From the NCBI GenBank assembly GCA_045639785.1, contig JAZUDT010000002.1, positions 4,121 to 68,120 on the forward strand: DNA of 64,000 nt. Direction: 5' to 3'. This DNA comes from Acutalibacteraceae bacterium. Its GTDB lineage: Bacteria > Bacillota > Clostridia > Oscillospirales > Acutalibacteraceae. Under the pieces are notes generated by a model that saw only the letters and a program-made list of their open reading frames with translations, did not search any database and was not told the origin of the DNA. Of the stretch, positions 38,788 through 57,035 are shown in pieces (position 1 is the stretch's first letter; each line of letters begins with the position of its first letter). A program made the position numbers and the translations under genes.

Positions 38788-38803
38788 AATTTCACCCTTT
38801 CAT

Positions 38804-39811: not shown

Positions 39812-39826
39812 TTTTCTTCCTCCTGA

Positions 39827-40177: not shown

Positions 40178-40190
40178 TTTAGTCCTCCTG

Positions 40191-45534: not shown

Positions 45535-45563
45535 TTGTGCATACCTGTATCATTTGATATAAT
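45535..45563 (+). promoter_or_regulatory. sigma-A-type promoter (extended -10) of the peptide-export operon
   Basis: TTGTGC (45535-45540), a 17-nt spacer, then TGaTATAAT (TG at 45555-45556, TATAAT at 45558-45563). Confidence 0.6.
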
Positions 45564-45598: not shown

Positions 45599-46018
45599 AT
45601 GAAAGATGAAATATTCAGAAAGAAAAGTCTTGATAAGGTGAAATCCCCCGAAAGCCTCGATGATTATATCCGCCTCTCCAATCCGGGAGTGTGGCTCCTG
45701 CTCGTCAGCGTCATAGTACTTTTAGCCGGTGCATGCGTCTGGGGCATATTCGGTCACATAGACAGAACCGTTGATACAAATATTTTTTCTCATGACGGAA
45801 CAGCGGTTTGCTATGTATCTGAAAAAGATATATCCGCCGTAAAACCCGATATGACCGTAAAGGGCGAAAACTATGAGGCTGTAATTGACAGTATCGGAGG
45901 AAAAACCGAATGGGGATATGTATGCCTTCTTCATTCCGACCAAAAGCTACCGGACGGACTTTATGACGGGGAGATAATCACAAACAAAATAAGACCGTTA
46001 TCATTTATTTTAAGCTGA
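45599..46018 (+). CDS. truncated HlyD-like (NHLP-type bacteriocin secretion adaptor N-terminal region) membrane protein
   Basis: FRKKSLDKVKSPESLDDYIRLSNPGVWLLLVSVIVLLAG is the conserved N-terminus plus TM helix of HlyD-family bacteriocin secretion proteins. The ORF is only about 139 aa, against roughly 400 aa for full adaptors. Confidence 0.6.
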   Translation: MKDEIFRKKSLDKVKSPESLDDYIRLSNPGVWLLLVSVIVLLAGACVWGIFGHIDRTVDTNIFSHDGTAVCYVSEKDISAVKPDMTVKGENYEAVIDSIGGKTEWGYVCLLHSDQKLPDGLYDGEIITNKIRPLSFILS

Positions 46019-46028
46019 GGTCGTTCTT

Positions 46029-48200
46029 ATGGCAGAAAAAGCAAAAAAACCTATATCAAAAGGCGTAGCCAAGGTGCCTGTCGTAATGCAGCTCGAAGCA
46101 CTGGAATGCGGTGCGGCAAGCCTTTGTATGATTTTAGCCTACTACAATAAATGGATACCTCTTGAACAGGTCCGTGAGGATTGCGGTGTATCCCGTGACG
46201 GCTCAAACGCAATGAATATGCTGAAAGCGGCAAGGGCATACGGGCTTAATGCAAGAGGATATCGCTATGAGCCGGAAAGTCTTAAAGAAAACGGCTCTTT
46301 CCCGTGTATTATACATTGGAATTTCAATCATTTTGTTGTGCTTGACGGCTTCAGAGGCGGAAAAGCCTTTTTGAATGACCCGGCTAAAGGCGCATACAGC
46401 GTTTCTATGGAGGCTTTCGACGAATCCTTCACCGGAATATGCCTTCAGTTTGAGCCGTCGGATTCCTTCGCCCCCTCGGGAAAGCCGAAAAGTATGCTTT
46501 CCTTTGCCGCAAAAAGGCTTAAAGGGAGCAGCGTTGCGATTATATTTACAGTCCTGACGGGCGTTATAGCCGCCACAATGGGCTTTGTTCAGCCTGCTTT
46601 TTCACGGGTATTTCTTGATTATCTGCTCAGCGGTGAGGAAAGAGACTGGGCTGTTCCGTTTCTTATTTTCCTCGGAGCTTTTAATTTAATTCAGATAATT
46701 ATGTCGGCATTAGAGGCTGTTTATTCCCTTCGTATAAACGGCAAAATGGCGGCAGTCGGAAACGCCTCCTATATGTGGAAGGTGCTCAAAATGCCGATGA
46801 AGTTTTTTTCACAGCGTATGGCGGGAGATATTCAGGGGCGGCAGAGTTCCCACGCTTCCATTGCCAATACACTGATAGGCACATTTGCCCCTCTTCTGCT
46901 CAATGCGATCATGATGATATTCTATCTTGCGGTAATGCTGAAATACAGTGTCGTGCTGACCGTTATCGGTCTTTTGTCACTTAGTATAAACGCTTTTGTT
47001 TCGGGTTACATATCAAAAAAGCGTGTCAATATCACAAGAGTTTCTATGCGTGACAGTGCAAAGCTTGCCGCCTCCACCGTTTCCGGAATTGAAATGATAG
47101 AAACAATTAAAGCATCCGGTGCGGAAGACGGGTATTTTAAAAAGTGGTCAGGCTATCAGGCAAGTGTGAATACACAGCAGGTGAAGTTTTTGAAGCTTGA
47201 CAGGTATCTCGGTATGATACCGCAGTTTGTTTCCGTCCTTGCAGATGACCTCGTACTGTTTATCGGTGTGTGGCTGACCATGCGGGGAGATTTCACCGTT
47301 GGTATGATTATGGCGTTTCAGGGATTTCTTGCCTCATTTATGGCTCCTGCTTTGACAATGGTTTCCGCCGGACAGACTATTCAGGAAATGCGTACACAGA
47401 TGGAACGTGTGGACGATGTTATGGAGTACCCCGATGATATCGTTTTAGCTGAAAGTCAATCCGACGGTAAAATAGAAAAGCTGTCAGGAAAAATGGAACT
47501 CAAGCATATCGTTTTCGGCTATTCTCCGCTTTCTGAGCCGCTTATACATGACTTTAATCTGACGGTGACACCGGGCAAAAGTGTCGCCGTTGTCGGTGCC
47601 TCAGGGTGCGGAAAATCAACCGTGTCAAAGCTTATTTCCGGACTGTATAAGCCTTGGAGCGGTGAAATACTTTTTGACGGAAAACCGATGAATGAAATTC
47701 CGAAGAATGTTTTTCGCTCTTCGCTTGCCGTTGTTGACCAGGATATAATTCTATTTGAGGATACTATCGCAAACAATATAAAAATGTGGGATGACAGCAT
47801 TGAAGACTTTGAAATGATTATTGCCGCCCACGACGCACAGCTTCACGAGGATATTATGCAGAGACCCAAGGGCTATCAGCATAAGCTCATTGAAGGCGGA
47901 AACGGTTTTTCCGGCGGGCAGAAACAGCGTATGGAAATTGCCCGTGCTCTTGCACAGGATCCGACAATCATTATTCTTGATGAGGCAACAAGTGCTCTTG
48001 ATGCCAAGACGGAATATGAGGTCGTAAAGGCGATACGCAACCGTAATATTACCTGCATAGTTATCGCACACCGACTCTCGACCATTCGTTCCTGTGATGA
48101 AATAATCGTTATGGAAAACGGCGAAATAAAGGACAGAGGAACACATAAAGAGCTTTTAGAGACAAGCGAAATTTACCGCGAACTCATCACTGCGGAATAA
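46029..48200 (+). CDS. bacteriocin-type ABC exporter with N-terminal C39 peptidase domain (NHLP-system peptidase/permease/ATPase)
   Basis: The C39 catalytic Cys context is QLEALECGAASLCMILAYYNKW, with HFVVLDG downstream. It has 6 TM helices, Walker A GASGCGKST, signature FSGGQKQR and Walker B IIILDEATSALD. Confidence 0.9.
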   Translation: MAEKAKKPISKGVAKVPVVMQLEALECGAASLCMILAYYNKWIPLEQVREDCGVSRDGSNAMNMLKAARAYGLNARGYRYEPESLKENGSFPCIIHWNFNHFVVLDGFRGGKAFLNDPAKGAYSVSMEAFDESFTGICLQFEPSDSFAPSGKPKSMLSFAAKRLKGSSVAIIFTVLTGVIAATMGFVQPAFSRVFLDYLLSGEERDWAVPFLIFLGAFNLIQIIMSALEAVYSLRINGKMAAVGNASYMWKVLKMPMKFFSQRMAGDIQGRQSSHASIANTLIGTFAPLLLNAIMMIFYLAVMLKYSVVLTVIGLLSLSINAFVSGYISKKRVNITRVSMRDSAKLAASTVSGIEMIETIKASGAEDGYFKKWSGYQASVNTQQVKFLKLDRYLGMIPQFVSVLADDLVLFIGVWLTMRGDFTVGMIMAFQGFLASFMAPALTMVSAGQTIQEMRTQMERVDDVMEYPDDIVLAESQSDGKIEKLSGKMELKHIVFGYSPLSEPLIHDFNLTVTPGKSVAVVGASGCGKSTVSKLISGLYKPWSGEILFDGKPMNEIPKNVFRSSLAVVDQDIILFEDTIANNIKMWDDSIEDFEMIIAAHDAQLHEDIMQRPKGYQHKLIEGGNGFSGGQKQRMEIARALAQDPTIIILDEATSALDAKTEYEVVKAIRNRNITCIVIAHRLSTIRSCDEIIVMENGEIKDRGTHKELLETSEIYRELITAE

Positions 48201-48214
48201 AGGGGGTGTCATAA

Positions 48215-50401
48215 ATGGGATGGTTTGAAGAACAGCTTAAATATCGGGAAGAAACTGACAATGCCGACTTTGCTGATGCTATAGATTCCATTGCCGGTGC
48301 GGTTATGGGAAGACATTTGCAGGATGCCCTGAGCCAGAATGAGATTGCCGATTCCGCCATTGATGAAATACTGAAATTCTATCACTGCAAGACAAGGACG
48401 GAAGAAATTCCGCCGCAGATAAAAACACCAGAAGAAAAAATCAAATACCGTATGCGTCCGTTCGGTATTAAGAGCCGCACGGTAACGCTCGACAGGGGCT
48501 GGTACCGCCATGCGGTGGGTGCAATGCTCGGCACGCTAAAAGAGGACGGCTCCGCCACCGCTCTGATACCGGGCAAGTTTTCCGGCTATCATCTCATAAA
48601 CTTCAAAACGGGTGAACGGGTAAAACTCAACCGAAAAAACGAAAACCTCATTAATAAGGAAGCATTATGCTTTTACGAGCCGCTTCCTCAAAAGGCTCTT
48701 TCGGTGAGCGACCTTCTGAAATTTATGTTTCAGCATCTCAGTTTTTCGGATATTTTTCTGTATCTGCTTCTTATGGCACTTTCGTCCGCCTTGGGGCTTC
48801 TTTCCCCTCTTTTCACAAGGTGGCTTTTCAGCGACGTTCTCGAAAGCGGTAATTTGCAGATTTTAGTTTCCCTTGCAATATTTATGATATGCTTTTCAGT
48901 AAGCAGTCTTTGCTTCGGCACATTTCAGACGCTTATCAATTCACGCATTTCGATAAAGCAGAATATTGCCGTGCAGGCGGCGGTTATGAACCGCATTATA
49001 AGTCTGCCGCCGTCATTCTTCAAAAACTATTCCGCCGGTGAGCTTTCACAGCGTGCCTCTTATGTTCAGTCACTGTGCTCCACCATGTTCAACACAATAG
49101 GTATGACGGGACTGACTTCTCTCTTTTCACTTATATATATCGGGCAGATTTTTGTCTTTGCTCCGTCACTTGTCGTGCCCGCTCTTCTCATCACTGTTTT
49201 AACGGTTGTTCTTTCCCTTATAACTACGTTTATGCAGATAAGAATTACACGTGAAACAATGGAAATTTCCGCAAAGACAAGCGGTCTTACATATTCAACA
49301 ATTACGGGCATACAAAAAATCAAACTTGCCGGAGCGGAAAAAAGGATGTTTTCACGATGGGCAAGACAATATGCAAGAGAAGCACAGCTCAGCTACAATC
49401 CGCCTCTCTTTCTTAAGTTGAGCACGACAATGAGCCTTGCACTTTCACTTATCGGAACAATGGTGCTTTATGCCGTTGCGATAAAAAATCAAGTCGGTGT
49501 TGCCGATTACTATGCTTTCAACACCGCATACGGTATGGTTTCATCGGCGTTTATGTCTGCTGTATCCATTGCCGTGACCGCCGCAAACATAAAGCCGACG
49601 CTTGAAATGGCAAAGCCCATTATGGAAGCTGAGCCGGAGGTGCACGACGGAAAAGAAAATATTGCCGAGCTTCATGGTGCTATTGAGCTGTCGCACGTTT
49701 CTTTTCGCTATGAGGAGTCAATGCCGAATATAATCGACGATTTGTCACTGAAAATAACACCGGGTGAATATCTTGCCGTTGTCGGTCCCACAGGATGCGG
49801 AAAAAGTACACTTCTGCGTCTGCTTTTAGGCTTTGAAACGCCGCAAAGGGGAAATATTTTATTTGATAAAAAGGATATTGTTTCAATAGACCTCGAATCA
49901 CTTCGCAGAAAAATCGGCGTTGTGATGCAGGACGGAAAGCTGTTTTTAGGTGATATATATTCCAACATAGTCATTACCGCCCCCGAGCTCACCTTGGATG
50001 AAGCGTGGGAAGCGGCTGAAACAGCATCTATAGCAGATGATATTCGCAATATGCCGATGGGCATGAGCACTGTGATTTGCGAGGGACAGGGCGGCATTTC
50101 CGGCGGACAGAAGCAGCGTCTTATGATAGCCAGAGCCATCGCCCCTAAGCCGAAAATACTGATGTTTGACGAAGCGACAAGTGCACTTGATAATATTACG
50201 CAAAAGAAAGTGTCCGATGCGATAGACTCTCTCAAATGCACAAGAATTGTTATAGCTCACCGTCTTTCCACCATTCAGCACGCAGACCGTATCATTTATC
50301 TTGAAAACGGCAGGATAGTTGAAGACGGAACATATAAAGAGCTTATCGAAAAGAACGGATGCTTTGCAAAGCTTATTGAGCGTCAGAGGCTTGATATTTG
50401 A
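48215..50401 (+). CDS. second ABC exporter subunit (NHLP-system permease/ATPase, no peptidase Cys)
   Basis: 728 aa. The N-terminal approximately 150-aa non-C39 domain is followed by a TMD and an NBD (GPTGCGKST, ISGGQKQR, ILMFDEATSALD). This matches the partner ABC of NHLP/NHLM export systems. Confidence 0.85.
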   Translation: MGWFEEQLKYREETDNADFADAIDSIAGAVMGRHLQDALSQNEIADSAIDEILKFYHCKTRTEEIPPQIKTPEEKIKYRMRPFGIKSRTVTLDRGWYRHAVGAMLGTLKEDGSATALIPGKFSGYHLINFKTGERVKLNRKNENLINKEALCFYEPLPQKALSVSDLLKFMFQHLSFSDIFLYLLLMALSSALGLLSPLFTRWLFSDVLESGNLQILVSLAIFMICFSVSSLCFGTFQTLINSRISIKQNIAVQAAVMNRIISLPPSFFKNYSAGELSQRASYVQSLCSTMFNTIGMTGLTSLFSLIYIGQIFVFAPSLVVPALLITVLTVVLSLITTFMQIRITRETMEISAKTSGLTYSTITGIQKIKLAGAEKRMFSRWARQYAREAQLSYNPPLFLKLSTTMSLALSLIGTMVLYAVAIKNQVGVADYYAFNTAYGMVSSAFMSAVSIAVTAANIKPTLEMAKPIMEAEPEVHDGKENIAELHGAIELSHVSFRYEESMPNIIDDLSLKITPGEYLAVVGPTGCGKSTLLRLLLGFETPQRGNILFDKKDIVSIDLESLRRKIGVVMQDGKLFLGDIYSNIVITAPELTLDEAWEAAETASIADDIRNMPMGMSTVICEGQGGISGGQKQRLMIARAIAPKPKILMFDEATSALDNITQKKVSDAIDSLKCTRIVIAHRLSTIQHADRIIYLENGRIVEDGTYKELIEKNGCFAKLIERQRLDI

Positions 50402-50527
50402 GAGTTAGAAATTAGGAGAGAGGAGTGAGGAGTTATCCGAGCAAGAATATATTTCCATAAAAAGTGATTGCGAAGAAATAAAAAAGATGCTGTCATCTTC
50501 CACAAAAACATTAAAGGACGAATTGAA

Positions 50528-51040
50528 ATGAAAACTTCTTACTTCTCCAACCTCACTCCTAACGCTCTGAAAGAGCAAATCTACCGTGATTTTTACGGCA
50601 AGGTCTACGGTTACATACTGTCGAAAATTCAGAATGTGCAGAATGCGGAGGACCTGACGTCGAATGTTTTTCTCAAGGTATATGAAAAGCTCGACACGTT
50701 TGACGACAGCAAGGCCTCTCTTTCCACATGGATTTACACCATAACAAGAAACACGCTGACGGATTTTTACCGCACGAGAAAGGTTTTTGACGAAATACCC
50801 GAAAACCAGGAGAGCGGCTTTTCTCTTGAAGATGAGGTATGCAATGCTCAGACGCTTGAAATGCTGGCACAGGCACTTGAAACGCTTGACGAGCGGGAAC
50901 GGGATATTGTTATTTTCCGCTACTACTCGGGCAAAACGCTCAGGGATATTTCGGAGCAGATGAATATTTCGTATGCATACGTTAAGGTGCTTCAGAATAA
51001 AGCGTTGGCAAAATTGAGAAAATTTTTGGAAAATCAGTAG
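50528..51040 (+). CDS. ECF-like sigma-70 family RNA polymerase sigma factor
   Basis: Region 2 is AEDLTSNVFLKVYEKLDTFDDSKASLSTWIYTITRNTLTDFYR and region 4 is ERERDIVIFRYYSGKTLRDISEQMNISYAYVKVLQNKALAKLR. The start MKTSYF at 50528 follows AAGGA. Confidence 0.85.
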   Translation: MKTSYFSNLTPNALKEQIYRDFYGKVYGYILSKIQNVQNAEDLTSNVFLKVYEKLDTFDDSKASLSTWIYTITRNTLTDFYRTRKVFDEIPENQESGFSLEDEVCNAQTLEMLAQALETLDERERDIVIFRYYSGKTLRDISEQMNISYAYVKVLQNKALAKLRKFLENQ

Positions 51041-51066
51041 CCGCTTTTTAAATTTCATCGTATAAA
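51028..51066 (+). promoter_or_regulatory. conserved promoter/5'UTR module, copy 1 (overlaps sigma gene stop)
   Basis: ggaaaatcagtagccgctttttaaatttcatcgtataaa. It shares GAAAAATCAGTAGCC-N-CTTTT-N-AAA-N3-CATCGTATAAA with copies 2 and 3. An RBS and ATG of peptide gene a follow about 30 nt downstream. Confidence 0.55.
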
Positions 51067-51095
51067 CAGATGAAAGGGGCAAGGAGGTAACAAAA

Positions 51096-51275
51096 ATGGA
51101 AAAGAAATTTGAACTTAATGATAAAGAGCTTGAAAAAGTCAGCGGCGGACCCGAAGAACGCACGGTGCTCGGCTTGAAGGCTTCATCGGATTGCAGAAAA
51201 TGCGAATGCGGGCAGATTATTGAAGATGACGGCCTTGCGTTCTGCCCGTTTTGCGGAAGCAAAATAAGCGATTGA
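51096..51275 (+). CDS. double-glycine-leader peptide a (zinc-ribbon-like core)
   Basis: Not in the ORF track because it is only 59 aa. The sequence is MEKKFELNDKELEKVSGG / PEERTVLGLKASSDCRKCECGQIIEDDGLAFCPFCGSKISD. The RBS AAGGAGG lies 8 nt upstream. Confidence 0.7.
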   Translation: MEKKFELNDKELEKVSGGPEERTVLGLKASSDCRKCECGQIIEDDGLAFCPFCGSKISD

Positions 51276-51283
51276 TAAAAACA

Positions 51284-51323
51284 GAAAAATCAGTAGCCAC
51301 TTTTTAAAAAGCATCGTATAAAT
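51284..51323 (+). promoter_or_regulatory. conserved promoter/5'UTR module, copy 2
   Basis: gaaaaatcagtagccactttttaaaaagcatcgtataaa, followed by AAGGAGG and ATG 51353. Confidence 0.55.
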
Positions 51324-51352
51324 ATATGCAACGAGGTAAGGAGGCAATAAAA

Positions 51353-51610
51353 ATGGAAAGAAAACTTAATGCAATTTTTGATTATCAGAATTTTGAAAAA
51401 AATCCCCGTCTTGAAAAGCTTATTTCGGAAACCGAGAACCGGTATGCGAGGGAGCTTTCAGATGACGATCTCACTTTTGTCAATGCGGCTGGCGATTTCA
51501 ACATGAGCGGCGGACTTATAAGCGAAAATGAAATTTCTGAAAAAAACAGCACTCCGACATCGTCCGCTGTATTTGGTAAATCAGTCAATGTCAATGAAGT
51601 GCTTACCTAA
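51353..51610 (+). CDS. small hydrophilic protein b (possible long-leader peptide or regulator)
   Basis: 85 aa: MERKLNAIFDYQNFEKNPRLEKLISETENRYARELSDDDLTFVNAAGDFNMSGG / LISENEISEKNSTPTSSAVFGKSVNVNEVLT. The RBS AAGGAGG lies 7 nt upstream. It has no TM segment. Confidence 0.55.
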   Translation: MERKLNAIFDYQNFEKNPRLEKLISETENRYARELSDDDLTFVNAAGDFNMSGGLISENEISEKNSTPTSSAVFGKSVNVNEVLT

Positions 51611-51660
51611 GCCTGAAAATTGAATGAATAATAATTAAACTGAAAGAGGTGGATTCTGAA

Positions 51661-51900
51661 ATGAAAACAAAAGAAGAACTGAATGAGCTCAAAAAAGAAT
51701 ACGAAAACGTAAAAAGCAAGCTTTCCGAGCTTAGTGAATACGAGCTTAAAGAGGTCACGGGCGGCTATCATTGCGGGATCAATGCGAACTCCGGCACAAT
51801 GATTCATGCACCGACCTTCGGAGCGGTTGCAGATACGGCTCCATACATTGATACAGGATTATCTTCAGATGTTAACAATAAAGAAATAAAGGTCGATTAA
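51661..51900 (+). CDS. double-glycine-leader peptide c
   Basis: 79 aa: MKTKEELNELKKEYENVKSKLSELSEYELKEVTGG / YHCGINANSGTMIHAPTFGAVADTAPYIDTGLSSDVNNKEIKVD. RBS AGAGGTGG. Confidence 0.75.
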   Translation: MKTKEELNELKKEYENVKSKLSELSEYELKEVTGGYHCGINANSGTMIHAPTFGAVADTAPYIDTGLSSDVNNKEIKVD

Positions 51901-51926
51901 ATTATATTATAGGAGGAGATTTAACC

Positions 51927-52097
51927 ATGAAAACTAAAGAAGAACTGAACGAACTCAAAAAAGAATACGAAAACGTAAAAAGCAAGCTTTCCGAGCTTAG
52001 CGAAGACGAGCTTAAAGAAGTCGTCGGCGGAGTCGGAGGCGATCCGATTGACATCGAAGTATATACCAACTGGGAAATTCTACCCACAATACAGTAA
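51927..52097 (+). CDS. double-glycine-leader peptide d
   Basis: Not in the ORF track (56 aa). The sequence is MKTKEELNELKKEYENVKSKLSELSEDELKEVVGG / VGGDPIDIEVYTNWEILPTIQ. RBS AGGAGGAG. The leader is 33/35 identical to peptide c. Confidence 0.75.
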   Translation: MKTKEELNELKKEYENVKSKLSELSEDELKEVVGGVGGDPIDIEVYTNWEILPTIQ

Positions 52098-52135
52098 CGG
52101 ATTTGACAGTAAAAACTAAAAAGGAGGAATTTCTC

Positions 52136-52318
52136 ATGGAAAACGAAAAGAATAAAAAATCAATATCCGATGAAGAGCTTGGAGATGTCACCGGCGGCGG
52201 TATCCTCGACAAGCTCACGACAGGAACGCAAGTTAATTCCTCTAAAGATGACCCCGACGGTTATCAGATAAGCGAAAGACTGCGTGTTCTGATTAGACCG
52301 GGTGATACTGCTGAATAG
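52136..52318 (+). CDS. double-glycine-leader peptide e
   Basis: 60 aa: MENEKNKKSISDEELGDVTGG / GILDKLTTGTQVNSSKDDPDGYQISERLRVLIRPGDTAE. The RBS AAGGAGGA lies 7 nt upstream. Confidence 0.75.
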   Translation: MENEKNKKSISDEELGDVTGGGILDKLTTGTQVNSSKDDPDGYQISERLRVLIRPGDTAE

Positions 52319-52380
52319 CTTGCTGATAAATACTCAGAAAAAATTTGGAATAAGAGTAATAAAAAATGCCAACGATATCC

Positions 52381-52420
52381 GGAAAAATCAGTAGCCCTTT
52401 TGAAAAAAGCATCGTATAAA
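52381..52420 (+). promoter_or_regulatory. conserved promoter/5'UTR module, copy 3
   Basis: ggaaaaatcagtagcccttttgaaaaaagcatcgtataaa, followed by AAGGAG and ATG 52452. Confidence 0.55.
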
Positions 52421-52451
52421 ATAATGAAAGAAAACAAAAGGAGCAATCATT

Positions 52452-52616
52452 ATGAAACTTGATGAAAACGAAAGCAAGAAGCAAGCAGAAATTAACGGAG
52501 ATGTACTTACGGAAGTCACGGGCGGTAAGGAAGATTTAACAATCAAGCCCAATGACGGAGAATTCTGGCATTCGTGGAATCCGGCATTTATCATTTCAGA
52601 CGAATCCATCAAATGA
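52452..52616 (+). CDS. double-glycine-leader peptide f
   Basis: Not in the ORF track (54 aa). The sequence is MKLDENESKKQAEINGDVLTEVTGG / KEDLTIKPNDGEFWHSWNPAFIISDESIK. RBS AAGGAG. Confidence 0.7.
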   Translation: MKLDENESKKQAEINGDVLTEVTGGKEDLTIKPNDGEFWHSWNPAFIISDESIK

Positions 52617-52684
52617 ATCAAGATAATATTTAACAAAAAATCAACCGATAACAGGTATGCAAAACACAGAAAGGAAAAATCAGA

Positions 52685-52879
52685 ATGGAAAACGAAAAGA
52701 ATATTAAAGCAATATCCGAAGAAGATCTTAAAAATGTCACCGGCGGCAAAGAAAATATCAATTCTGAGGAACTTTGGTTTGAGGGTACAGATGTTGACAG
52801 GATTGCCATGCTAAATTCCGGTCCCGCAAACGGAGTCACTCCGATAATTTTTACCGCCACAGTGAATGGGGATAAGTAA
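52685..52879 (+). CDS. double-glycine-leader peptide g
   Basis: 64 aa: MENEKNIKAISEEDLKNVTGG / KENINSEELWFEGTDVDRIAMLNSGPANGVTPIIFTATVNGDK. The leader is paralogous to peptide e. Confidence 0.7.
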   Translation: MENEKNIKAISEEDLKNVTGGKENINSEELWFEGTDVDRIAMLNSGPANGVTPIIFTATVNGDK

Positions 52880-52915
52880 ATTATCGTTTTGTTTTGAAAA
52901 GCAAGTAAAAATCAG

Positions 52916-52952
52916 AAAAACGCTTGAAACCTTTGCGTTTCAAGCGTTTTTT
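52916..52952. terminator. bidirectional terminator shared by the peptide operon and the recombinase gene
   Basis: aaaaacgcttgaaac / gtttcaagcgttttt form an 11-bp core stem extended by A/T tracts. The recombinase stop codon (52940-52942) lies in the right arm. Confidence 0.75.
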
Positions 52953-54427
52953 GATTTTGGTGCACCGAAATCGGTGAAATCCGAACCTTTTTCTGCCGCT
53001 TCAATTTCGGCAAAGGTTATTGTTTTTGAACCGTCTTTGAAATTAAAAGTGATTACCATTTTGTCATCGTCAAGATAAATTGCGTTGATAAATGTATCAA
53101 TCAGCTTGCGGCGATGTTCAAGTTTCTCTATGTTAAGCTTTCTCAATCTGTGGAACCAAAACAGTATCTGTTCTCTTGTAAGAACCGGTTTTGACATTTC
53201 TTCTTTCATTATCTGAACCGAAAGTTCGCCTTTTTGCTGTTCAAGTTCTTCAAGTCTTTGTTTGGTTGACGGTGTAATTATGCCTTGCTCTATTGCGTTC
53301 AGCATATTATTTATAGCTTTTTCAGTCTCTGAATACCGTTTTTGAAGTATCGGTAAAACCTTGTTTTCAGAACCTAATTTTTCTAAAGCCATATCGGCAA
53401 GGCGTTCAATCAGATCATCATCAAGAATGATTTTTTGTATCTGTTCAAGGACTAAATTCTCTATCCAATCCTTTTTTACGGTCTTTTTATTACATCCACG
53501 GTGTTCTTTTACGCTGACACATTTATAGTATCTGTGAACCTCACCTGTATGACTTGTACCGCTTTCGCCAACCATAAAGCATTTACATTTTGCACAGTAA
53601 AGTTTAGTTGTCAACAGATATTCATCTTCGGCTTTATGTTTAGCCGGAGCTTTTTTATTTAATGCCATTCGCTCCTGTACTCTGTCAAACATTTCTTGGG
53701 TTACAATAGCGGGAATACCTCCGGGGATAACAACATCCTTGTATTTATATTCGCCTATGTACTTACGGTTATGAAGCATACTTGTAACATTATCCGTATC
53801 AAGCTTGCCGTTATGCCGCTGTGTTCTGACACCTCTGATATTCAATTCATCGGCTATCTGCTGCATACCCATTCCGTTTGCATACATCTCAAAAGCGTCC
53901 GCAACGGCAGGCGAAGTTATGGGATCAAGCTGATAATGTTTATCGCTGTCAATTACATATCCGATAGGGAGCGTACCGCCGTTATACTTGCATTTAAGGG
54001 CATTTTCTTTCATTCCACGGTTTACTTTTTCGGCAAGTTCAACGGAATAATATTCTGCCATACCCTCAAGCATTGTTTCAAGAAGCACGCCTTCTGAGCC
54101 TTTTGAAATGGCTTCGGTTGCAGAAACAACCTTAACGCCGTTCTTTTTTAATGCCGCTTTATAGTGTGCAGAATCAAAACGATTACGAGCAAATCTGTCA
54201 AGCTTCCAAACTATAACAACATCGAAATTTTTTCTGCTGCTGTCTTTAATCATCCTTTGAAAATCAGGTCTTTTATCGGTTTTTGCAGAAAATGCACGGT
54301 CGATATATATATCAACTATATTGATGCAGTTCCGTTCGGCAAATTCCTTGCACTCACGAATCTGACCTTCAATAGATTCTTCACGCTGACTGTCCGAAGA
54401 ATATCTTGCATAAATTACACCGTTCAT
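52940..54427 (-). CDS. large serine recombinase (resolvase/invertase catalytic domain + recombinase + zinc-ribbon domains)
   Basis: MNGVIYARYSSDSQREESIEGQ carries the catalytic Ser motif. Also present are VIVWKLDRFARN and the Cys-rich CAKCKCFMVG...YYKCVSVKEHRGC zinc ribbon. The start at 54427 is the first Met before the conserved N-terminus. Confidence 0.9.
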   Translation of the reverse strand: MNGVIYARYSSDSQREESIEGQIRECKEFAERNCINIVDIYIDRAFSAKTDKRPDFQRMIKDSSRKNFDVVIVWKLDRFARNRFDSAHYKAALKKNGVKVVSATEAISKGSEGVLLETMLEGMAEYYSVELAEKVNRGMKENALKCKYNGGTLPIGYVIDSDKHYQLDPITSPAVADAFEMYANGMGMQQIADELNIRGVRTQRHNGKLDTDNVTSMLHNRKYIGEYKYKDVVIPGGIPAIVTQEMFDRVQERMALNKKAPAKHKAEDEYLLTTKLYCAKCKCFMVGESGTSHTGEVHRYYKCVSVKEHRGCNKKTVKKDWIENLVLEQIQKIILDDDLIERLADMALEKLGSENKVLPILQKRYSETEKAINNMLNAIEQGIITPSTKQRLEELEQQKGELSVQIMKEEMSKPVLTREQILFWFHRLRKLNIEKLEHRRKLIDTFINAIYLDDDKMVITFNFKDGSKTITFAEIEAAEKGSDFTDFGAPKSKNA

Positions 54428-54532
54428 TTTCTCACTGTCCTTTCTGCCGGGTTTCAGGGCTGTCCCTGACAAGTGCCGTGCATATGCAACGGCGATGCTT
54501 GATAAGACAATGTCCATTGGATTTCAAGCATC

Positions 54533-54573
54533 CAAGCGAATTTGTGCTATCACAATTCATTGCTTGATAAGAC
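54533..54573 (+). repeat. inverted repeat, left copy (caagcgaatt-N11-aattcattgcttgataagac)
   Basis: The reverse complement occurs at 62035-62074 (20/20 and 10/10 matches around a 10-11 nt non-conserved spacer). The local partner gttgtcttgaaagcaatg (54581-54597) can also pair with it. Confidence 0.8.
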
Positions 54574-54613
54574 AACCCCGTTGTCTTGAAAGCAATGTAA
54601 AATTGGGAGGACA

Positions 54614-54639
54614 AATTCATTGCTTGATGATACGATACC
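54614..54639 (+). repeat. third copy of the repeat core (aattcattgcttgat-gatacgatacc)
   Basis: It is a direct repeat of 54554-54568. Its 3' part (gatacgatacc) resembles the extension of the right copy (aagacgatacc). A shorter partial copy, gatgcttgataagacaa, is at 54494-54510. Confidence 0.7.
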
Positions 54640-54795
54640 GCTTACAAATGGAGTATATCATATCCTAAAAGAAAAGTCTATAATAAAATCTATATTTTCA
54701 AAATAAAATTGATTTTTTCAATTTTATTGTTGCTTATTTATTAAGCTTGTGATATACTTAAAACTGTTGAATTATATCCATAGGAGGGCTGCGCT

Positions 54796-55005
54796 TTGGC
54801 TCGCTCATACAATAAACTTTGGAAACTGATGATTGATAAAAAGATGAATAAAACACAACTCCGTGAAGCCTCAAAAATCACTACTAATGCAATGGCTAAA
54901 CTTGCAAAAGATGAATCAGTACCCCTTGAAACTCTTGAAAAGATTTGTGCCGTTTTGCATTGCAATATTGAGGATATTGTAGAAGTTACTTATGAAGAAA
55001 ACTAA
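54796..55005 (+). CDS. XRE-family HTH regulator (possible R-M controller protein)
   Basis: 69 aa with a TTG start 7 nt after TAGGAGGG. The HTH is MNKTQLREASKITTNAMAKLAKDESVPLETLEKICAVLHCNIEDIVEV. It is the first gene of the co-directional cassette. Confidence 0.75.
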   Translation: MARSYNKLWKLMIDKKMNKTQLREASKITTNAMAKLAKDESVPLETLEKICAVLHCNIEDIVEVTYEEN

Positions 55006-55107
55006 AACTTATCTTCATTATATTGAAAGAAATGTCCGTTAATATGGACTTTATATTTGTTATAATAGTCGATAGATGTACTGCTGTCTTTAGAGAGGTT
55101 CATGTTT

Positions 55108-56121
55108 ATGCCTTATCAAATTTGGAACAGAAGATATACAGGAAGCAAATATAAAATTGCTGAATGGATACACGGTTTAATATCTGAAAATTGTATTGGA
55201 ACATCTTTTTGTGATATTTTTGCCGGTACTGCAATTATCAGTAAACATGCATTAGATAATTATGAAGAAGTATATATAAATGATTTTCTCTATTCAAACG
55301 AAATAATATATAAAGCGTTTTTTGAACAAAATTATTATGATATAGAGAAACTAAATAAATTATGCAAGCAATTCAATTCAGTAGATTGTTCAAATATTCC
55401 TGATAACTATATATCTCTTAATTTCGGAAACAAATATTTTTCCTACTCAGATGCTCTTTTAATCGGTTATATTCGTGATCGAATCGAAAAAGAAGAACTA
55501 ACCGAAAAAGAAAAAAATATTCTGCTTGCTTCATTACTTTATTCGGCAGATAAATCTGCAAATACAGTCGGTCACTATGATGCCTATATTAAAGGAAAAG
55601 CAATCCCCGATACTTTTAAATTTGATTTAATTGTACCTTATAAATACAAAAACAAAAAGATACATATAACACGTAAAGATGCCAATGAATTAGCAAAGGA
55701 AATTCAAACAGATATTGTATATATCGATCCACCATACAATTCAAGACAATACAGTAGATTTTATCATGTGCTCGAAAACATAGCTTGTTGGAATAAGCCC
55801 GATTTGTTTGGCGAGGCTTGTAAGCCTATTCCCGAAAACATGAGTGAGTATTGTCGAAATGCAGCAACAGCAGTGTTTGAAGATCTTATAAATTCACTCA
55901 AATGCAAGTATATTGTTGTTTCGTATAATAACACATACAATTCAAAAAGCAGTTCATCTAAAAATAAAATAACATTAGAAGATATTGAAAGAATACTTGC
56001 AAAAAGAGGGAAAGTTTCAATTTATGAAAAACCGTTTCAATACTTTAATGCAGGAAAAACAGATTTGAAAGATCATAAGGAACTAATATTTATAGTGGAA
56101 GTTGGTAAAGAAAATGATTGA
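55108..56121 (+). CDS. D12-class N6-adenine DNA methyltransferase (M1)
   Basis: RRYTGSKYKIAEWI N-terminus, motif I-like FCDIFAGTAIIS, catalytic DPPYNSRQY. An alternative ATG is at 55102. Confidence 0.8.
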   Translation: MPYQIWNRRYTGSKYKIAEWIHGLISENCIGTSFCDIFAGTAIISKHALDNYEEVYINDFLYSNEIIYKAFFEQNYYDIEKLNKLCKQFNSVDCSNIPDNYISLNFGNKYFSYSDALLIGYIRDRIEKEELTEKEKNILLASLLYSADKSANTVGHYDAYIKGKAIPDTFKFDLIVPYKYKNKKIHITRKDANELAKEIQTDIVYIDPPYNSRQYSRFYHVLENIACWNKPDLFGEACKPIPENMSEYCRNAATAVFEDLINSLKCKYIVVSYNNTYNSKSSSSKNKITLEDIERILAKRGKVSIYEKPFQYFNAGKTDLKDHKELIFIVEVGKEND

Positions 56122-57022
56122 AAGAAGTGAATGCAGACGTTCTCCATTCTTTTATGTTGGAGATAAATTCAAGCTCGTTCCTCAACTAAAAGAAAATTTT
56201 CCGAAAGATATTGACCGCTTTATTGAACCCTTTTGTGGTGGCGGAAGCGTTTTTTTGAATACTGAAGCAAACCAATATTTGCTGAACGATATTGATTCAT
56301 ATATGATCAAGCTGCATCAGTTTTTAATCTCTGCAAGCGAGAACACAGAGCAGTTTTGGAGTGAACTGAAGTTTGATATAGATAAGTATAGGCTTTCTGC
56401 AACATTTCTCGGAAAAGATGTTCCCTCGGAATACAGAAAAGAATTTGTGAAGACATATTTTGCCAAATACAATAAAGAATCATATATGAAAATGAGAGCA
56501 GATTTCAACGATGGTAAAGATGATATGATGCTTCTTTATATGCTTTTAATCTATGGCTTCAACAGAATGTTAAGATTTAATCGTAAAGGAGACTTTAATC
56601 TTCCGGTAGGAAATGTTGACTTCAATCAGAATGTTGTTGATGCACTGAATTCATATTTTGATTATGTGAATGATAGAGATATTGAATTGTTCAATATGGA
56701 TTTTCAGGACTTCATCGAGAAAGTTCAGCCGACTCCCAATGATATGGTTTATTTAGATCCGCCGTATTTAATTACTTTCAGCGAATATAACAAATTGTGG
56801 AATGAAGATAGTGAAATGCGACTAATTGACTATTTGGATGAGCTTGATGCTCGTGGTGTTCGATTTGCCGTTTCGAATGTTTTATGGCACAGAAAGAGAT
56901 ATAACGGCACATTTAATGCATGGGCACAAAAATATAATATTGTGCGCATACAGAGCAATTACATAAGCTATCATGACAACTCAGAAAAAGACTCATACGA
57001 AGTATTGGTGAAAAACTATTAA
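56114..57022 (+). CDS. D12-class (Dam-like) N6-adenine DNA methyltransferase (M2)
   Basis: FFYVGDKFKLVPQL, EPFCGGGSVFLN (motif I) and DPPYLITFSEYN (motif IV). The ATG at 56114 overlaps the M1 stop (ATGATTGA). Confidence 0.85.
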   Translation: MIERSECRRSPFFYVGDKFKLVPQLKENFPKDIDRFIEPFCGGGSVFLNTEANQYLLNDIDSYMIKLHQFLISASENTEQFWSELKFDIDKYRLSATFLGKDVPSEYRKEFVKTYFAKYNKESYMKMRADFNDGKDDMMLLYMLLIYGFNRMLRFNRKGDFNLPVGNVDFNQNVVDALNSYFDYVNDRDIELFNMDFQDFIEKVQPTPNDMVYLDPPYLITFSEYNKLWNEDSEMRLIDYLDELDARGVRFAVSNVLWHRKRYNGTFNAWAQKYNIVRIQSNYISYHDNSEKDSYEVLVKNY

Positions 57023-57035
57023 GGATGTGAGATTT

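What the first reader, a model, noticed from the sequence alone, without database searches (positions are those of the whole stretch)
51096..52879. Seven tandem small genes, six with clear double-glycine leaders: leaders conserved in pairs, cores unrelated and net anionic, no maturase or immunity gene
**Seen in sequence.** Seven RBS-preceded small ORFs follow the sigma factor gene. Three of them are shorter than 60 aa and are therefore absent from the ORF track.
- Six have a clear leader ending in (V/L)-x-GG: VSGG, VTGG, VVGG, VTGG, VTGG and VTGG.
- The seventh (ORF b) has only an atypical internal MSGG and may not be a substrate.
- The leaders of c and d are 33/35 identical at protein level and nearly identical at DNA level, while their cores share nothing. 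The leaders of e and g (MENEKN.K.IS.E.L..VTGG) behave the same way.
- By hand count, the six clear cores are net negative (about -2 to -4), hydrophilic and nearly Cys-free.
- I see no LanM/LanBC, cyclodehydratase, sactisynthase or small TM immunity ORF between 45.6 and 52.9 kb.

**Established knowledge.** GG leaders are cleaved by C39-domain ABC exporters such as the one encoded at 46029. Classical class II bacteriocins are cationic and amphipathic, and are usually paired with immunity genes.

**Inference.** These may be an undescribed family of unmodified secreted peptides, such as signals, anionic effectors or decoys, with a diversifying-core architecture rather than conventional bacteriocins.
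Basis: partly seen in the sequence, partly recalled or inferred. Interest (0 to 1): 0.8.

Follow-up and report, generated by a model that had tools for sequence, protein, structure and literature searches.

The report
Sigma-controlled export island with swappable secreted peptides
Seven real small genes sit behind a two-part peptide-export pump and its own sigma factor in a gut or rumen Clostridia-type bacterium: six encode acidic, highly variable peptides on conserved export leaders, and the seventh is a previously unrecognised small protein that almost always travels with the sigma factor and may regulate it.

Summary
Seven Shine-Dalgarno-preceded small ORFs (a-g, 51096-52879) follow an ECF-type sigma gene. 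Orthologues in a 90%-related locus show purifying selection (dN/dS 0.12-0.40).

**Known parts.**
- The exporter is a member of the NHLP/Nif11-class cassette (TIGR03796 plus TIGR03797, with a truncated HlyD).
- Conserved leaders with hypervariable cores were described for that system in 2010.

**What appears new.**
1. Three copies of an ECF-type promoter (AATCAGTAGCC-N17-CGTATAAA) drive the small genes. The same motif sits at the sigma 3' end in related loci.
2. The 35-aa leader of c/d belongs to at least 5,030 protein clusters. Their cores are mostly unrelated, acidic (median pI 5.0) and non-hydrophobic.
3. Some cores look like pieces of ordinary extracellular proteins. Core e matches the flagellin N-terminal (flg22) segment, c the NlpC/P60 His motif, and a is a zinc ribbon.
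4. ORF b is not a doubtful substrate. Its ~47-aa N-terminus ends in an invariant V-N-A-A-G. It defines a family of about 1,083 clusters and lies next to this sigma clade in 24 of about 30 loci. It may be a processing-coupled sigma regulator, which is untested.

No maturase or immunity gene is consistently linked. What the peptides do is unknown.

The parts
45555..45563 (+). Housekeeping-type extended -10 element (TGATATAAT) upstream of the transporter operon
   Evidence: Read directly from the sequence. The same TTGATATAAT sits upstream of the mini-HlyD gene in L005. This is inference only.
45599..46018 (+). 139-aa single-TM accessory protein, a truncated HlyD ('mini-HlyD')
   Evidence: It matches only positions 1-47 of TIGR03794 (E 1.6e-8, 33.9 bits against a cutoff of 156). 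It is conserved as the first gene of the cassette in L005, L007, L009, L012 and others.
46029..48200 (+). ABC1: peptidase-containing ABC transporter (C39 domain, permease, ATPase)
   Evidence: TIGR03796 scores 913 bits against a cutoff of 853. Pfam Peptidase_C39 gives E 2e-32. The catalytic QLEALECG and NHFVVL motifs are visible in the translation.
48215..50401 (+). ABC2: partner ABC permease/ATPase without a recognisable peptidase domain
   Evidence: TIGR03797 scores 712.9 bits against a cutoff of 709.4. The N-terminal 170 aa have no Pfam hit and no C39 motif.
50528..51040 (+). ECF-type sigma-70 family factor
   Evidence: Sigma70_r2 and r4 domains and TIGR02937 are matched. More than 838 homologues were found, many about 70% identical, and those whose context was fetched are from Clostridia-type MAGs or unassigned metagenome contigs.
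51033..51066 (+). Promoter copy 1 (ATCAGTAGCC-N17-CGTATAAA); it overlaps the sigma stop codon and precedes a
   Evidence: Three matches in the window against 0 expected. The same motif at the same place occurs in L005, L007 and L009.
51096..51275 (+). a: 18-aa GG leader plus a 41-aa zinc-ribbon core (pI 4.6)
   Evidence: TIGR01847 scores 17.0 against a cutoff of 15.7, with weak zinc-ribbon Pfam hits. The same core (76% id) sits on the 35-aa long leader in L005 11436-11678.
51289..51322 (+). Promoter copy 2, preceding b (and probably c, d and e)
   Evidence: It retains GAAAAATCAGTAGCC, so it is a duplicated module of the sigma 3' end plus promoter.
51353..51610 (+). b: conserved sigma-linked small protein; a 46-aa helical N-terminus ending VNAA|G plus a variable acidic tail
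   Evidence: The family has 1,083 clusters at E<=1e-3, and 135 of 150 carry the AA|G site. It lies next to this sigma clade in 24 of about 30 loci and is absent from about 50 unrelated ECF loci. The AF2 model has helices at 2-11, 18-31 and 37-40 and a disordered tail.
51661..51900 (+). c: 35-aa long leader plus a 44-aa core whose start resembles the NlpC/P60 His motif
   Evidence: The only three PDB hits are all NlpC/P60 proteins at the HxGIxxGxGxM[IV]HAP motif (E 0.07-0.22). The orthologue is L005 11691.
51927..52097 (+). d: 35-aa long leader plus a 21-aa core
   Evidence: TIGR01847 scores 17.3 against a cutoff of 15.7. The orthologue is L005 11961, with 91% aa identity over the aligned residues and dN/dS 0.19.
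52136..52318 (+). e: 21-aa short leader plus a 39-aa core that mimics the flagellin N-terminal (flg22) segment
   Evidence: Pfam Flagellin_N gives E 2.8e-4 (below GA) and NCBIfam flagellins reach 4.8e-5. 56 of 57 PDB hits are flagellins aligned at residues ~27-60, and the flg22 peptide itself scores E 0.011.
52387..52420 (+). Promoter copy 3, preceding f and g
52452..52616 (+). f: 25-aa GG leader plus a 29-aa core
   Evidence: A related core sits on the long leader in P0366. There is a weak TPR-like match only (E 0.086).
52685..52879 (+). g: 21-aa short leader plus a 43-aa core
   Evidence: The orthologue is L005 12165, with 77% id and dN/dS 0.40. No PDB relative was found.
52915..52952 (.). 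Strong bidirectional intrinsic terminator that closes the array
   Evidence: A 16-bp stem followed by a T run on both strands.

Best explanation
This is a self-contained peptide-secretion island of the NHLP/Nif11 export class, driven by its own sigma factor.

**Shown**
- A mini-HlyD, a C39-peptidase ABC transporter (ABC1), a peptidase-less partner (ABC2) and an ECF-type sigma factor are encoded in a row.
- They are followed by seven small genes and a strong terminator.
- Three copies of a motif resembling an ECF-type promoter precede a, b and f. The same motif sits at the sigma 3' end of related loci, and in L007 also in front of a leader-bearing gene about 5 kb from the cassette.
- Six products carry canonical double-glycine leaders. 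Their cores are acidic, hydrophilic, and unrelated to each other.
- Cores have been exchanged between leader types exactly at the GG junction.

**Inferred mechanism**
1. A housekeeping promoter makes the transporter and the sigma factor.
2. The sigma factor transcribes a, b-c-d-e and f-g.
3. The C39 domain binds each leader helix and cuts after GG.
4. The ABC1/ABC2 pair, with mini-HlyD, exports 21-44-residue acidic peptides, probably unmodified.

**Inferred role of the cargo**
The set varies between close strains and is hypervariable across thousands of homologues. I therefore read it as a polymorphic repertoire of extracellular interference or recognition peptides. That is bacteriocin-like in ecology but not in chemistry. 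Several cores appear to be recruited from pieces of extracellular proteins (flagellin, NlpC/P60).

**ORF b**
ORF b is a separate component. It is a conserved helical protein with an export-leader-like end (VNAA|G), genetically coupled to the sigma factor. I think it most likely links sigma activity to transporter activity.
For: **Exporter identity.** TIGR03796 scores 913 (cutoff 853) and TIGR03797 scores 712.9 (cutoff 709.4). The C39 catalytic motifs are present.

**Cassette conservation.** The gene order is conserved next to unrelated neighbouring genes in L005, L007 and L009 and in more than 15 species-level MAGs.

**Promoter.**
- Three matches in the window against 0 expected.
- The same motif occurs at the sigma 3' end in L005, L007 and L009, and upstream of a cargo gene about 5 kb from the cassette in L007.
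- A CGTAT -10-like element lies upstream of b in many loci where b precedes sigma.

**The small ORFs are real genes.** dN/dS is 0.12-0.40, and they are independently called as genes.

**Leader-core modularity.**
- Core a sits on a short leader here and on the long leader in L005.
- Core f occurs on the long leader in P0366.
- A b-family tail shares a module with long-leader cores at E 4e-9.

**Scale and chemistry.**
- 5,030 clusters share the long leader, and the best 117 hold 76 core groups.
- Median core pI is 5.0, and 1 of 117 is TM-like.

**Cargo in related cassettes.** It includes NlpC/P60 and LysM domains above Pfam cutoffs and true Nif11-leader precursors.

**b-sigma linkage.**
- b lies next to sigma in 24 of about 30 loci.
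- In L014 and L022 the b stop overlaps the sigma start by 4 nt.
- b is absent from about 50 unrelated ECF loci.
Against: - There is no expression, cleavage or secretion data.
- The promoter assignment rests on motif position and conservation only.
- 'Unmodified' is an argument from absence. Two related loci do carry an rSAM/SPASM maturase, L005 has a GNAT gene between ABC2 and sigma, and modifying enzymes can be encoded elsewhere (Haft 2010).
- No target, receptor or immunity determinant was identified, so the ecological role is a guess.
- The resemblances of c and f to known domains are statistically weak (E 0.07-0.2).
- The role of b is unsupported by any structural or sequence similarity to known anti-sigma domains. 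A complex prediction could not be run.
Confidence: 0.7

Rival explanations
1. This is an ordinary class II bacteriocin locus. The peptides kill related bacteria, and immunity is intrinsic or encoded elsewhere.
For: - The products have GG leaders and a dedicated PCAT. TIGR01847 'bacteriocin' hits are above cutoff for a and d.
- NCBI names homologues 'bacteriocin'.
- Multi-peptide, strain-variable arrays are typical of bacteriocin loci.
- The pneumococcal rtg GG peptides are likewise presumed to be bacteriocins without proof.
Against: - All seven mature parts are acidic (pI 4.05-4.86) and hydrophilic, with no amphipathic or hydrophobic stretch.
- No small TM immunity ORF lies in the array or in L005, L007 or L009.
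- Several cargos are fragments or inactive versions of ordinary domains.
Confidence: 0.15
2. These are RiPP precursors. The cores are post-translationally modified by enzymes encoded elsewhere in the genome before export.
For: - The export cassette was defined through RiPP precursors, and those are often encoded far from their maturases.
- rSAM/SPASM genes are linked in L020 and L022, next to Nif11-leader Cys-rich precursors.
- A GNAT gene is present in L005.
Against: - No maturase lies within 45.6-52.9 kb.
- The only radical SAM gene in the window (61259-62017) is of the 'mobile pair B'/PA0069 type without a SPASM domain. It lies beyond an integrase and an R-M system.
- Five of the six clear cores have 0-1 Cys and are not Ser/Thr/Cys-rich.
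- Most related loci lack any maturase.
Confidence: 0.1
3. These are signalling peptides. b (and perhaps others) are pheromone precursors of the ComC/BlpC type, and their mature tails act as pherotype-specific autoinducers of the island.
For: - b has a conserved leader and a short variable tail (median 21 aa) that falls into recurrent types.
- b is tied to the island's regulator.
- GG-leader pheromones exported by PCATs are well known (PMC7595303).
Against: - No histidine kinase, response regulator or RRNPP receptor lies in or next to any cassette examined.
- Seven or more different peptides per locus is unlike a signal.
- b tails share modules with ordinary cargo cores.
Confidence: 0.15
4. These are matrix or cell-surface small proteins. 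Like EbfG1-4 exported by PteB in Synechococcus, the peptides build or modify an extracellular matrix or the cell wall of the producer.
For: - There is precedent for non-antibiotic GG-motif small secreted proteins, including control by a sigma factor (PMC4997328, PMC11345509).
- LysM, SH3b-like and NlpC/P60-like cargos in related cassettes point to the cell wall.
Against: - Structural components would not be expected to be hypervariable or to differ between strains whose transporters are about 93% identical.
- The window's own cores carry no wall-binding domain.
Confidence: 0.12
5. Some of the small ORFs are decaying or non-functional by-products of recombination between leader modules.
For: - Cores look like gene fragments.
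- A read-through variant of e exists (P0134).
- The NlpC/P60 cargo in L009 lacks its catalytic Cys.
Against: - dN/dS is well below 1 for a, c, d and g.
- All seven keep start codons, SD sequences and intact leaders.
- Core families recur across many metagenomes.
Confidence: 0.05

Closest known systems
NHLP/Nif11-class peptide export cassette (TIGR03794/TIGR03796/TIGR03797; Haft, Basu & Mitchell 2010, PMC2887384)
   Same: - The two ABC subunits score above the equivalog cutoffs.
- GG-type leaders are conserved by the transporter.
- Cores are hypervariable and 'mix and match'.
- Precursors occur as multi-copy arrays.
- Related loci contain true Nif11-leader precursors.
   Different: - The HlyD component is cut down to 139 aa.
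- None of the window's seven precursors is an NHLP or N11P.
- No cyclodehydratase, LanM or rSAM gene is linked.
- A dedicated ECF sigma factor, its promoter modules and the b protein are not part of the published description.
Prochlorosin-type natural combinatorial libraries (one conserved leader, many cores)
   Same: A nearly invariant leader is attached to a very large number of unrelated cores, with several per genome (the concept is discussed).
   Different: Prochlorosin cores are Cys/Ser/Thr-rich and are made into lanthipeptides by one LanM. Here most cores lack Cys and no modifying enzyme is linked.
Pneumococcal rtg locus (RtgAB PCAT plus several co-regulated GG peptides; PMC7018657)
   Same: A dedicated PCAT exports a set of co-regulated GG peptides of undetermined function. 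The leader has features that give transporter selectivity.
   Different: rtg is controlled by an Rgg/SHP pheromone system, and most rtg peptide genes have immunity-like neighbours. Here control is by an ECF-type sigma factor and there are no immunity-like genes.
EbfG1-4 / PteB of Synechococcus elongatus (PMC4997328; sigma-factor control in PMC11345509)
   Same: These are GG-motif small secreted proteins with a non-antibiotic role, exported by a PCAT and under sigma-factor control.
   Different: EbfG proteins are a small conserved set with a matrix role. The cargo here is hypervariable and acidic, and its role is unknown.
Secreted anti-sigma factors: FlgM-FliA (established knowledge) and BtrA-BtrS of Bordetella (PMC10732220)
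   Same: This applies only if the b hypothesis is right. A small, largely helical or disordered protein is encoded with its sigma factor, and its removal by a secretion machine reports that the machine is working (for BtrA).
   Different: Those systems use type III secretion. No anti-sigma is known to be handled by a peptidase-containing ABC transporter, and binding of b to sigma has not been shown.
PCAT1 and its 90-residue substrate CtA of Clostridium thermocellum (PMC6959990, PMC8794836)
   Same: It is a Clostridia-class PCAT whose natural cargo is a small protein of unknown function with a GG leader. ABC2 aligns to PCAT1 over residues 183-721.
   Different: PCAT1 is a homodimer with two active peptidase domains. 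Here one subunit has the peptidase and the partner does not.

Membership tests
NHLP/Nif11-class export cassette | ABC transporter with an N-terminal C39 peptidase that scores as TIGR03796 | tested here: met
   913.2 bits against a cutoff of 853.3. Peptidase_C39 gives E 2e-32.
NHLP/Nif11-class export cassette | Second ABC permease/ATPase without a peptidase, scoring as TIGR03797 | tested here: met
   712.9 bits against a cutoff of 709.4. The N-terminal 170 aa have no C39 signature.
NHLP/Nif11-class export cassette | HlyD-like membrane fusion protein (TIGR03794, 421 positions) | tested here: not met
   Only positions 1-47 are matched, at 33.9 bits against a cutoff of 156.2. The protein is 139 aa and is conserved at that short length in related Clostridia loci.
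NHLP/Nif11-class export cassette | Adjacent NHLP (TIGR03793) or Nif11-type (TIGR03798) precursors | tested here: not met
   None of a-g hits either model. Related cassettes do: L012 scores 42.2 and 38.5 and L009 scores 32.7, against a cutoff of 32.3.
Class II (unmodified) bacteriocins | Double-glycine leader | tested here: met
   TIGR01847 scores 17.0 (a) and 17.3 (d) against a cutoff of 15.7. The [VL]xGG sites can be read directly.
Class II (unmodified) bacteriocins | Cationic, amphiphilic or hydrophobic mature peptide | tested here: not met
   pI is 4.05-4.86, and the maximum 15-residue hydropathy is at most 0.95.
Class II (unmodified) bacteriocins | Cognate small membrane immunity gene next to the structural gene | tested here: not met
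   No TM-containing small ORF with an SD lies in 51.0-52.9 kb, and none in L005, L007 or L009.
Class II (unmodified) bacteriocins | Antimicrobial activity | not testable with these tools
   This needs synthetic or secreted peptide assays.
RiPP precursor cluster | Co-located maturase (LanM/LanBC, YcaO, rSAM/SPASM and similar) | tested here: not met
   None lies in the cassette. The window's rSAM at 61259-62017 is not a SPASM type. An rSAM/SPASM gene is linked in only two related loci, L020 and L022.
ECF sigma / anti-sigma pair (b as anti-sigma) | Anti-sigma gene adjacent to and co-transcribed with the sigma gene | tested here: met
   b lies next to sigma in 24 of about 30 loci of this sigma clade. 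The b stop and sigma start overlap by 4 nt in L014 and L022.
ECF sigma / anti-sigma pair (b as anti-sigma) | Recognisable anti-sigma domain (ZAS/class I, or class II such as NepR/CnrY) | tested here: not met
   There is no Pfam or NCBIfam hit. A profile search of PDB sequences gives nothing below E 1. The model is a short helical protein only.
ECF sigma / anti-sigma pair (b as anti-sigma) | Physical binding to and inhibition of the sigma factor | not testable with these tools
GG-leader peptide pheromone (ComC/BlpC type) | Linked sensor (histidine kinase and response regulator, or a cytoplasmic receptor) | tested here: not met
   No such gene occurs in any cassette examined.
Flagellin (for core e) | Full Flagellin_N and Flagellin_C domains | tested here: not met
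   Only about 30 residues match Flagellin_N positions 25-54, at 21.4 bits against a GA of 26.6. Core e is a look-alike of one segment, not a flagellin.

The most novel reading that the evidence does not exclude
Two linked ideas remain open.

**(1) ORF b may be a new kind of sigma regulator handled by a peptidase-containing ABC transporter.**
- It would be a small helical protein that holds the ECF sigma factor.
- Through its export-leader-like end (VNAA|G instead of xGG), it would be captured, slowly cleaved or exported by the PCAT.
- Cargo transcription would then be matched to export capacity. This would be the FlgM principle transplanted to a type-I-like exporter.

**(2) The cargo may be a recombining library of fragments or inactive copies of extracellular proteins.**
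- Examples are the flagellin ND0-ND1 segment, the NlpC/P60 His motif, a Cys-less NlpC/P60, LysM domains and zinc ribbons.
- These would be secreted as mimics that interfere with the assembly or recognition of the corresponding proteins in neighbouring cells, phages or the host.
Probability: 0.25. Interest if true: 0.85.

Novelty: new variant of a known kind. Interest (0 to 1): 0.62.

Why it matters
**What the data define.** Peptidase-containing ABC exporters are usually read as bacteriocin pumps. In this case a very large, unannotated cargo family has been filed as 'bacteriocin' or not annotated at all. It comprises at least 5,000 clusters on one leader alone, found in gut, rumen and other metagenomes. 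Its chemistry is wrong for membrane-active bacteriocins, and it has no immunity genes.

The locus also provides a compact, testable regulatory unit. It consists of one sigma factor, one promoter motif and one conserved 60-90-residue partner protein. That unit could explain how such islands are switched on.

**If b couples sigma activity to export.** It would be the first secretion-checkpoint anti-sigma outside type III systems.

**If the cargo acts by mimicry.** Core e resembles the flagellin flg22 region. Mimicry by such cores would open a new class of interference molecules in anaerobic gut communities.

**Practical use.** The conserved leader plus the heterodimeric exporter is a ready-made secretion tag system for Clostridia.

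Tried and rejected
It was replaced by a full-length alignment.
- An exact look-up of c found no record. The NCBI source contig (68,127 bp) could not be named, so the organism is inferred only from relatives: Lachnospiraceae, Oscillospiraceae, Acutalibacteraceae and Clostridia MAGs.
- No paper in the held library contains the leader or b strings, or describes a sigma factor with this cassette.

**Searches that found no convincing relative**
- A profile of b against PDB sequences gave nothing better than E 1 (YmoA, judged to be chance).
- Cores g and f gave no convincing PDB relatives.
- The ABC2 N-terminus compared with the C39 domain of ABC1 gave only a 33-residue match at E 0.023. This is not enough to call it a C39-like domain.

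**Candidates considered and set aside**
- Antisense hydrophobic ORFs (51183-51347, 52293-52484, and 50405-51262 opposite sigma) were rejected as immunity genes. They lack SD sequences, and two are the reverse complement of the repeated promoter.
- The radical SAM gene at 61259-62017 was rejected as a maturase. It has no SPASM domain, lies 8 kb away beyond an integrase and an R-M system, and is absent from related loci.
- The MSGG of b was rejected as a cleavage site because it is not conserved.

Full report
**1. Observation**

| ORF | Coordinates | Length (aa) |
|---|---|---|
| a | 51096-51275 | 59 |
| b | 51353-51610 | 85 |
| c | 51661-51900 | 79 |
| d | 51927-52097 | 56 |
| e | 52136-52318 | 60 |
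| f | 52452-52616 | 54 |
| g | 52685-52879 | 64 |

- Each ORF has a Shine-Dalgarno sequence.
- The c and d leaders are 33/35 identical in protein and 95/105 in DNA, while their cores do not align. The e and g leaders are 15/21 and 55/63 identical.
- The six clear cores have net charges of -2 to -4, pI 4.05-4.86 and no hydrophobic stretch.
- Core a is not Cys-free. It has five Cys arranged as a zinc ribbon.
- The genes are real. An independent metagenome assembly calls all seven.
- Orthologues of a, b, c, d and g exist in a locus whose sigma factor is 90% identical (L005). They show dN/dS of 0.12-0.40, against 0.07-0.12 for the transporter and sigma genes.

**2. Surroundings**

Upstream lie four genes in a row.
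- A 139-aa single-TM protein matches only the first 47 positions of the HlyD-like model TIGR03794.
- An ABC transporter with a C39 peptidase domain scores as TIGR03796 (913 bits, cutoff 853).
- A second ABC subunit without a peptidase scores as TIGR03797 (712.9 bits, cutoff 709.4).
- An ECF-type sigma-70 family factor follows.

The catalytic Cys and His motifs of the C39 domain are intact. This is the export cassette that Haft and colleagues found by phylogenetic profiling of NHLP and Nif11-type precursors. They reported three things: the transporter, rather than the modifying enzymes, conserves the leader; leaders and cores are mixed and matched; and cores are hypervariable.

The array ends in a strong bidirectional terminator at 52915-52952. 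Beyond it lie a convergent phage-type large serine integrase, two D12 methyltransferases and an AlwI-type endonuclease. To the left are an epimerase gene and the packaging genes of a prophage.

**3. A dedicated promoter**

The motif ATCAGTAGCC-N17-CGTATAAA occurs three times in the window and nowhere else, against 0 expected. The copies sit immediately before a, b and f.
- The first copy overlaps the last codons and the stop codon of the sigma gene.
- The other two copies keep the same GAAAAATCAGTAGCC, so they are duplicated modules of the sigma 3' end plus promoter.
- The same motif lies at the sigma 3' end in L005, L007 and L009. In L007 it also lies in front of a leader-bearing gene about 5 kb from the cassette.
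- A CGTAT -10-like element lies upstream of b in many loci where b precedes sigma.
- The transporter operon has a housekeeping-type TGATATAAT instead.

I infer that the transporter and sigma are made from a general promoter, and that sigma drives three units: a, b-c-d-e and f-g.

**4. The cassette elsewhere**

The sigma factor has more than 838 homologues, many about 70% identical. The cassette order is mini-HlyD, ABC1, ABC2, sigma, then small genes. It recurs next to unrelated neighbouring genes in metagenome contigs. It also recurs in Lachnospiraceae, Oscillospiraceae, Acutalibacteraceae, Butyrivibrio and other Clostridia MAGs from rumen and gut.

The number of small genes ranges from one to about ten. 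Cargo in these cassettes includes:
- a GG-leader NlpC/P60 domain (34.4 bits, GA 23) whose catalytic Cys is replaced by Ala;
- LysM domains (39.7 bits, GA 20.9);
- an SH3b-like domain, below GA;
- zinc ribbons;
- true Nif11-leader precursors above the TIGR03798 cutoff.

Two loci (L020, L022) carry an rSAM/SPASM maturase-like gene next to Cys-rich Nif11-leader precursors. One locus (L005) has a GNAT gene. The rest have no candidate modifying enzyme and no immunity-like gene.

**5. Leaders and cores**

A profile that included the 35-aa leader of c and d found 5,030 protein clusters at E<=0.1. In the best 117:
- the leader is nearly invariant (MKTKEELNALKEEVETLNKKLAELTEEELAQVTGG);
- the cores fall into 76 unrelated groups, with a median length of 36 aa;
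- 77 cores are net negative, 18 neutral and 22 positive, and the median pI is 5.0;
- 71 have no Cys and 22 have four or more;
- one has a TM-like stretch.

Cores move between leader types at the GG junction.
- Core a sits on an 18-aa leader here and on the 35-aa leader in L005 (76% core identity).
- A relative of core f sits on the long leader in P0366.

Some cores resemble pieces of ordinary proteins.
- **Core e.** It aligns with the flagellin N-terminal segment that contains flg22. 56 of 57 PDB hits at E<=10 are flagellins, always at residues about 27-60. The best E is 1.3e-3, with 16/27 identity to a P. aeruginosa B-type flagellin, and the flg22 peptide itself scores E 0.011.
- **Core c.** The start of its family matches the catalytic-His motif of NlpC/P60. 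The only three PDB hits are all NlpC/P60 proteins at that motif, at E 0.07-0.22, so this is suggestive only.
- **Cores f and g.** Neither gave anything convincing.

**6. ORF b**

That tetrapeptide is not conserved. What is conserved is the N-terminal ~47 residues: ME.KLK.LFDYQ.FE.N.RL..LI.ETE.RY..ELSDDDL..VNAAG.
- In an alignment of 102 members, A45 and G47 are invariant and A46 is nearly so.
- The segment fits the double-glycine leader register, with L at -12, L at -7 and V at -4, but it has Ala-Ala where cargo leaders have Gly-Gly.
- A profile search of 1.84 billion representative proteins found 1,083 members at E<=1e-3 and 404 at E<=1e-10. They are 59-150 aa long and always matched over the N-terminus.
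- 135 of the best 150 have the AA|G site. The tails have a median length of 21 aa, and 70% are net negative. They fall into recurrent types. At least one type (QYEIHIY...FKPxF) is shared with cores on the long leader, at E 4e-9.
- No Pfam or NCBIfam model covers b.
- The AlphaFold model (102 sequences, mean pLDDT 67) has helices at 2-11, 18-31 (pLDDT about 89) and 37-40, and a disordered tail.

The linkage to sigma is tight. An HMM of b finds a copy next to the sigma gene in 24 of about 30 loci whose sigma is at least 40% identical to the window's. It finds none in about 50 loci with unrelated ECF sigma factors.
- b lies just downstream of sigma in the window, L005, L007, L009, L011 and L013, and just upstream in the others.
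- In L014 and L022 the b stop overlaps the sigma start by 4 nt.
- The b-sigma pair also occurs without a transporter within 10 kb (L011, L013, L014, L019, L023).
- In L007 and L008, b is the only small gene beside the cassette.

**7. Interpretation**

What is shown:
- the gene content, its conservation, the promoter motif and its placement;
- the leader-core modularity and the physico-chemistry of the cores;
- the b-sigma linkage.

What is inferred:
- sigma recognises the motif;
- the C39 domain cuts after GG and the ABC1/ABC2 pair exports the cores;
- the cores are not modified in this locus.

For the cargo, three things argue against signals or structural proteins: hypervariability, several genes per locus, and presence/absence differences between very close loci. 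The window has e and f where L005 has two other peptides. These features favour a repertoire used in interactions with other cells. The acidity, hydrophilicity and lack of immunity genes argue against classical pore-forming bacteriocins.

I put about 45% on competitive interference of some non-membrane kind, 20% on recognition or signalling, 15% on decoy or mimic functions towards phages or the host, and the rest on other roles.

For b, I put about 30% on a regulator that couples sigma activity to transporter activity, either as an anti-sigma or as a transporter-titrated partner. I put 25% on a pheromone precursor with an unknown sensor, and 30% on a founder cargo that is merely co-inherited with sigma.

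**8. Comparison and novelty**

The locus is a member of the NHLP/Nif11 export class by its two ABC subunits. It fails two tests: the full-length HlyD, and in this window the NHLP/N11P precursor.
- It works like a bacteriocin export locus but fails two of the three testable class II features, charge and immunity.
- It resembles the pneumococcal rtg locus and the cyanobacterial EbfG/PteB system in exporting GG peptides whose role is not killing, or is unknown.
- The secreted anti-sigma factors FlgM and BtrA are the nearest analogues for the b hypothesis, but they use type III secretion.
- I found no paper that describes the sigma factor, its promoter, the b family or the long leader.

I therefore rate it as a new variant of a known kind. 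The finding is of moderate to high interest, mainly because of the b-sigma pair and the nature of the cargo.

Noticed in passing
window 52136-52318 (core residues 22-60 of e): The mature part of e is a look-alike of the flagellin N-terminal segment that contains the flg22 epitope. It is 16/27 identical to P. aeruginosa B-type flagellin residues 29-55, and 56 of 57 PDB hits are flagellins.
   Followed up: partly
window 51766-51822 (start of core c) and homologues P0286, P0290, P0293, P0296: The core c family begins with H-x-G-I-x-A-x-x-G-x-M-[IV]-H-A-P, the catalytic-His motif of NlpC/P60 hydrolases, but it lacks the Cys-bearing half of the domain. The statistical support is weak (E 0.07-0.22).
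   Followed up: partly
L009 5542-5949: A 135-aa GG-leader cargo is a complete NlpC/P60 domain in which the catalytic Cys is replaced by Ala (VDASGL against FDCSGL in solved structures). It is probably an inactive, binding-only protein.
   Followed up: partly
window 51033-51066, 51289-51322, 52387-52420: The -35 part of the repeated promoter overlaps the sigma stop codon (GAAAATCAGTAG = E N Q stop). The two downstream copies keep these sigma 3' codons, so new cargo units appear to be added by duplicating the sigma 3' end together with the promoter.
   Followed up: yes
L020 4953-9797 and L022 10504-11316: Related cassettes carry an rSAM/SPASM maturase-like gene. In L020 it is accompanied by at least eight tandem Nif11-leader precursors with Cys-rich 60-90-aa cores. 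The same sigma/b/exporter chassis therefore also serves true RiPP pathways.
   Followed up: partly
L005 9449-9973: A GNAT acetyltransferase gene is inserted between ABC2 and sigma in the closest relative of the window's cassette. It is absent from the window.
   Followed up: no
window 37632-44024 (- strand): Prophage packaging and head genes (small and large terminase, portal) lie immediately left of the epimerase gene and the cassette. The same junction is present in an independent metagenome contig (L001).
   Followed up: partly
window 52940-58610: A phage-type large serine integrase lies convergent to the array. It is followed by two D12-class adenine methyltransferases and an AlwI-family restriction endonuclease. 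The cassette thus sits between two mobile-looking regions.
   Followed up: partly
window 61259-62017: A radical SAM protein of the 'mobile pair B'/PA0069/DUF5131 type, without a SPASM domain. It is unlikely to act on the peptides.
   Followed up: partly
P0134 (cluster of e) and P0168 (b family): P0134 is a variant of e that reads through its stop codon into the next promoter (108 aa). P0168 is a 126-aa chimera that joins the N-terminal third of the sigma factor to a b protein. Either may be an assembly artefact or a recombination product.
   Followed up: no
window 51183-51347 and 52293-52484 (- strand): Two hydrophobic antisense ORFs share the string YTMLF[KS]K[WG]LLIF. This is because they are the reverse complement of the repeated promoter module. 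They could be mistaken for small membrane immunity genes.
   Followed up: yes
L007 203-394 and 1-90 (- strand): Long-leader cargo genes lie about 5 kb from the cassette and are preceded by the sigma-type promoter motif. The regulon is therefore not confined to the array beside the sigma gene.
   Followed up: partly
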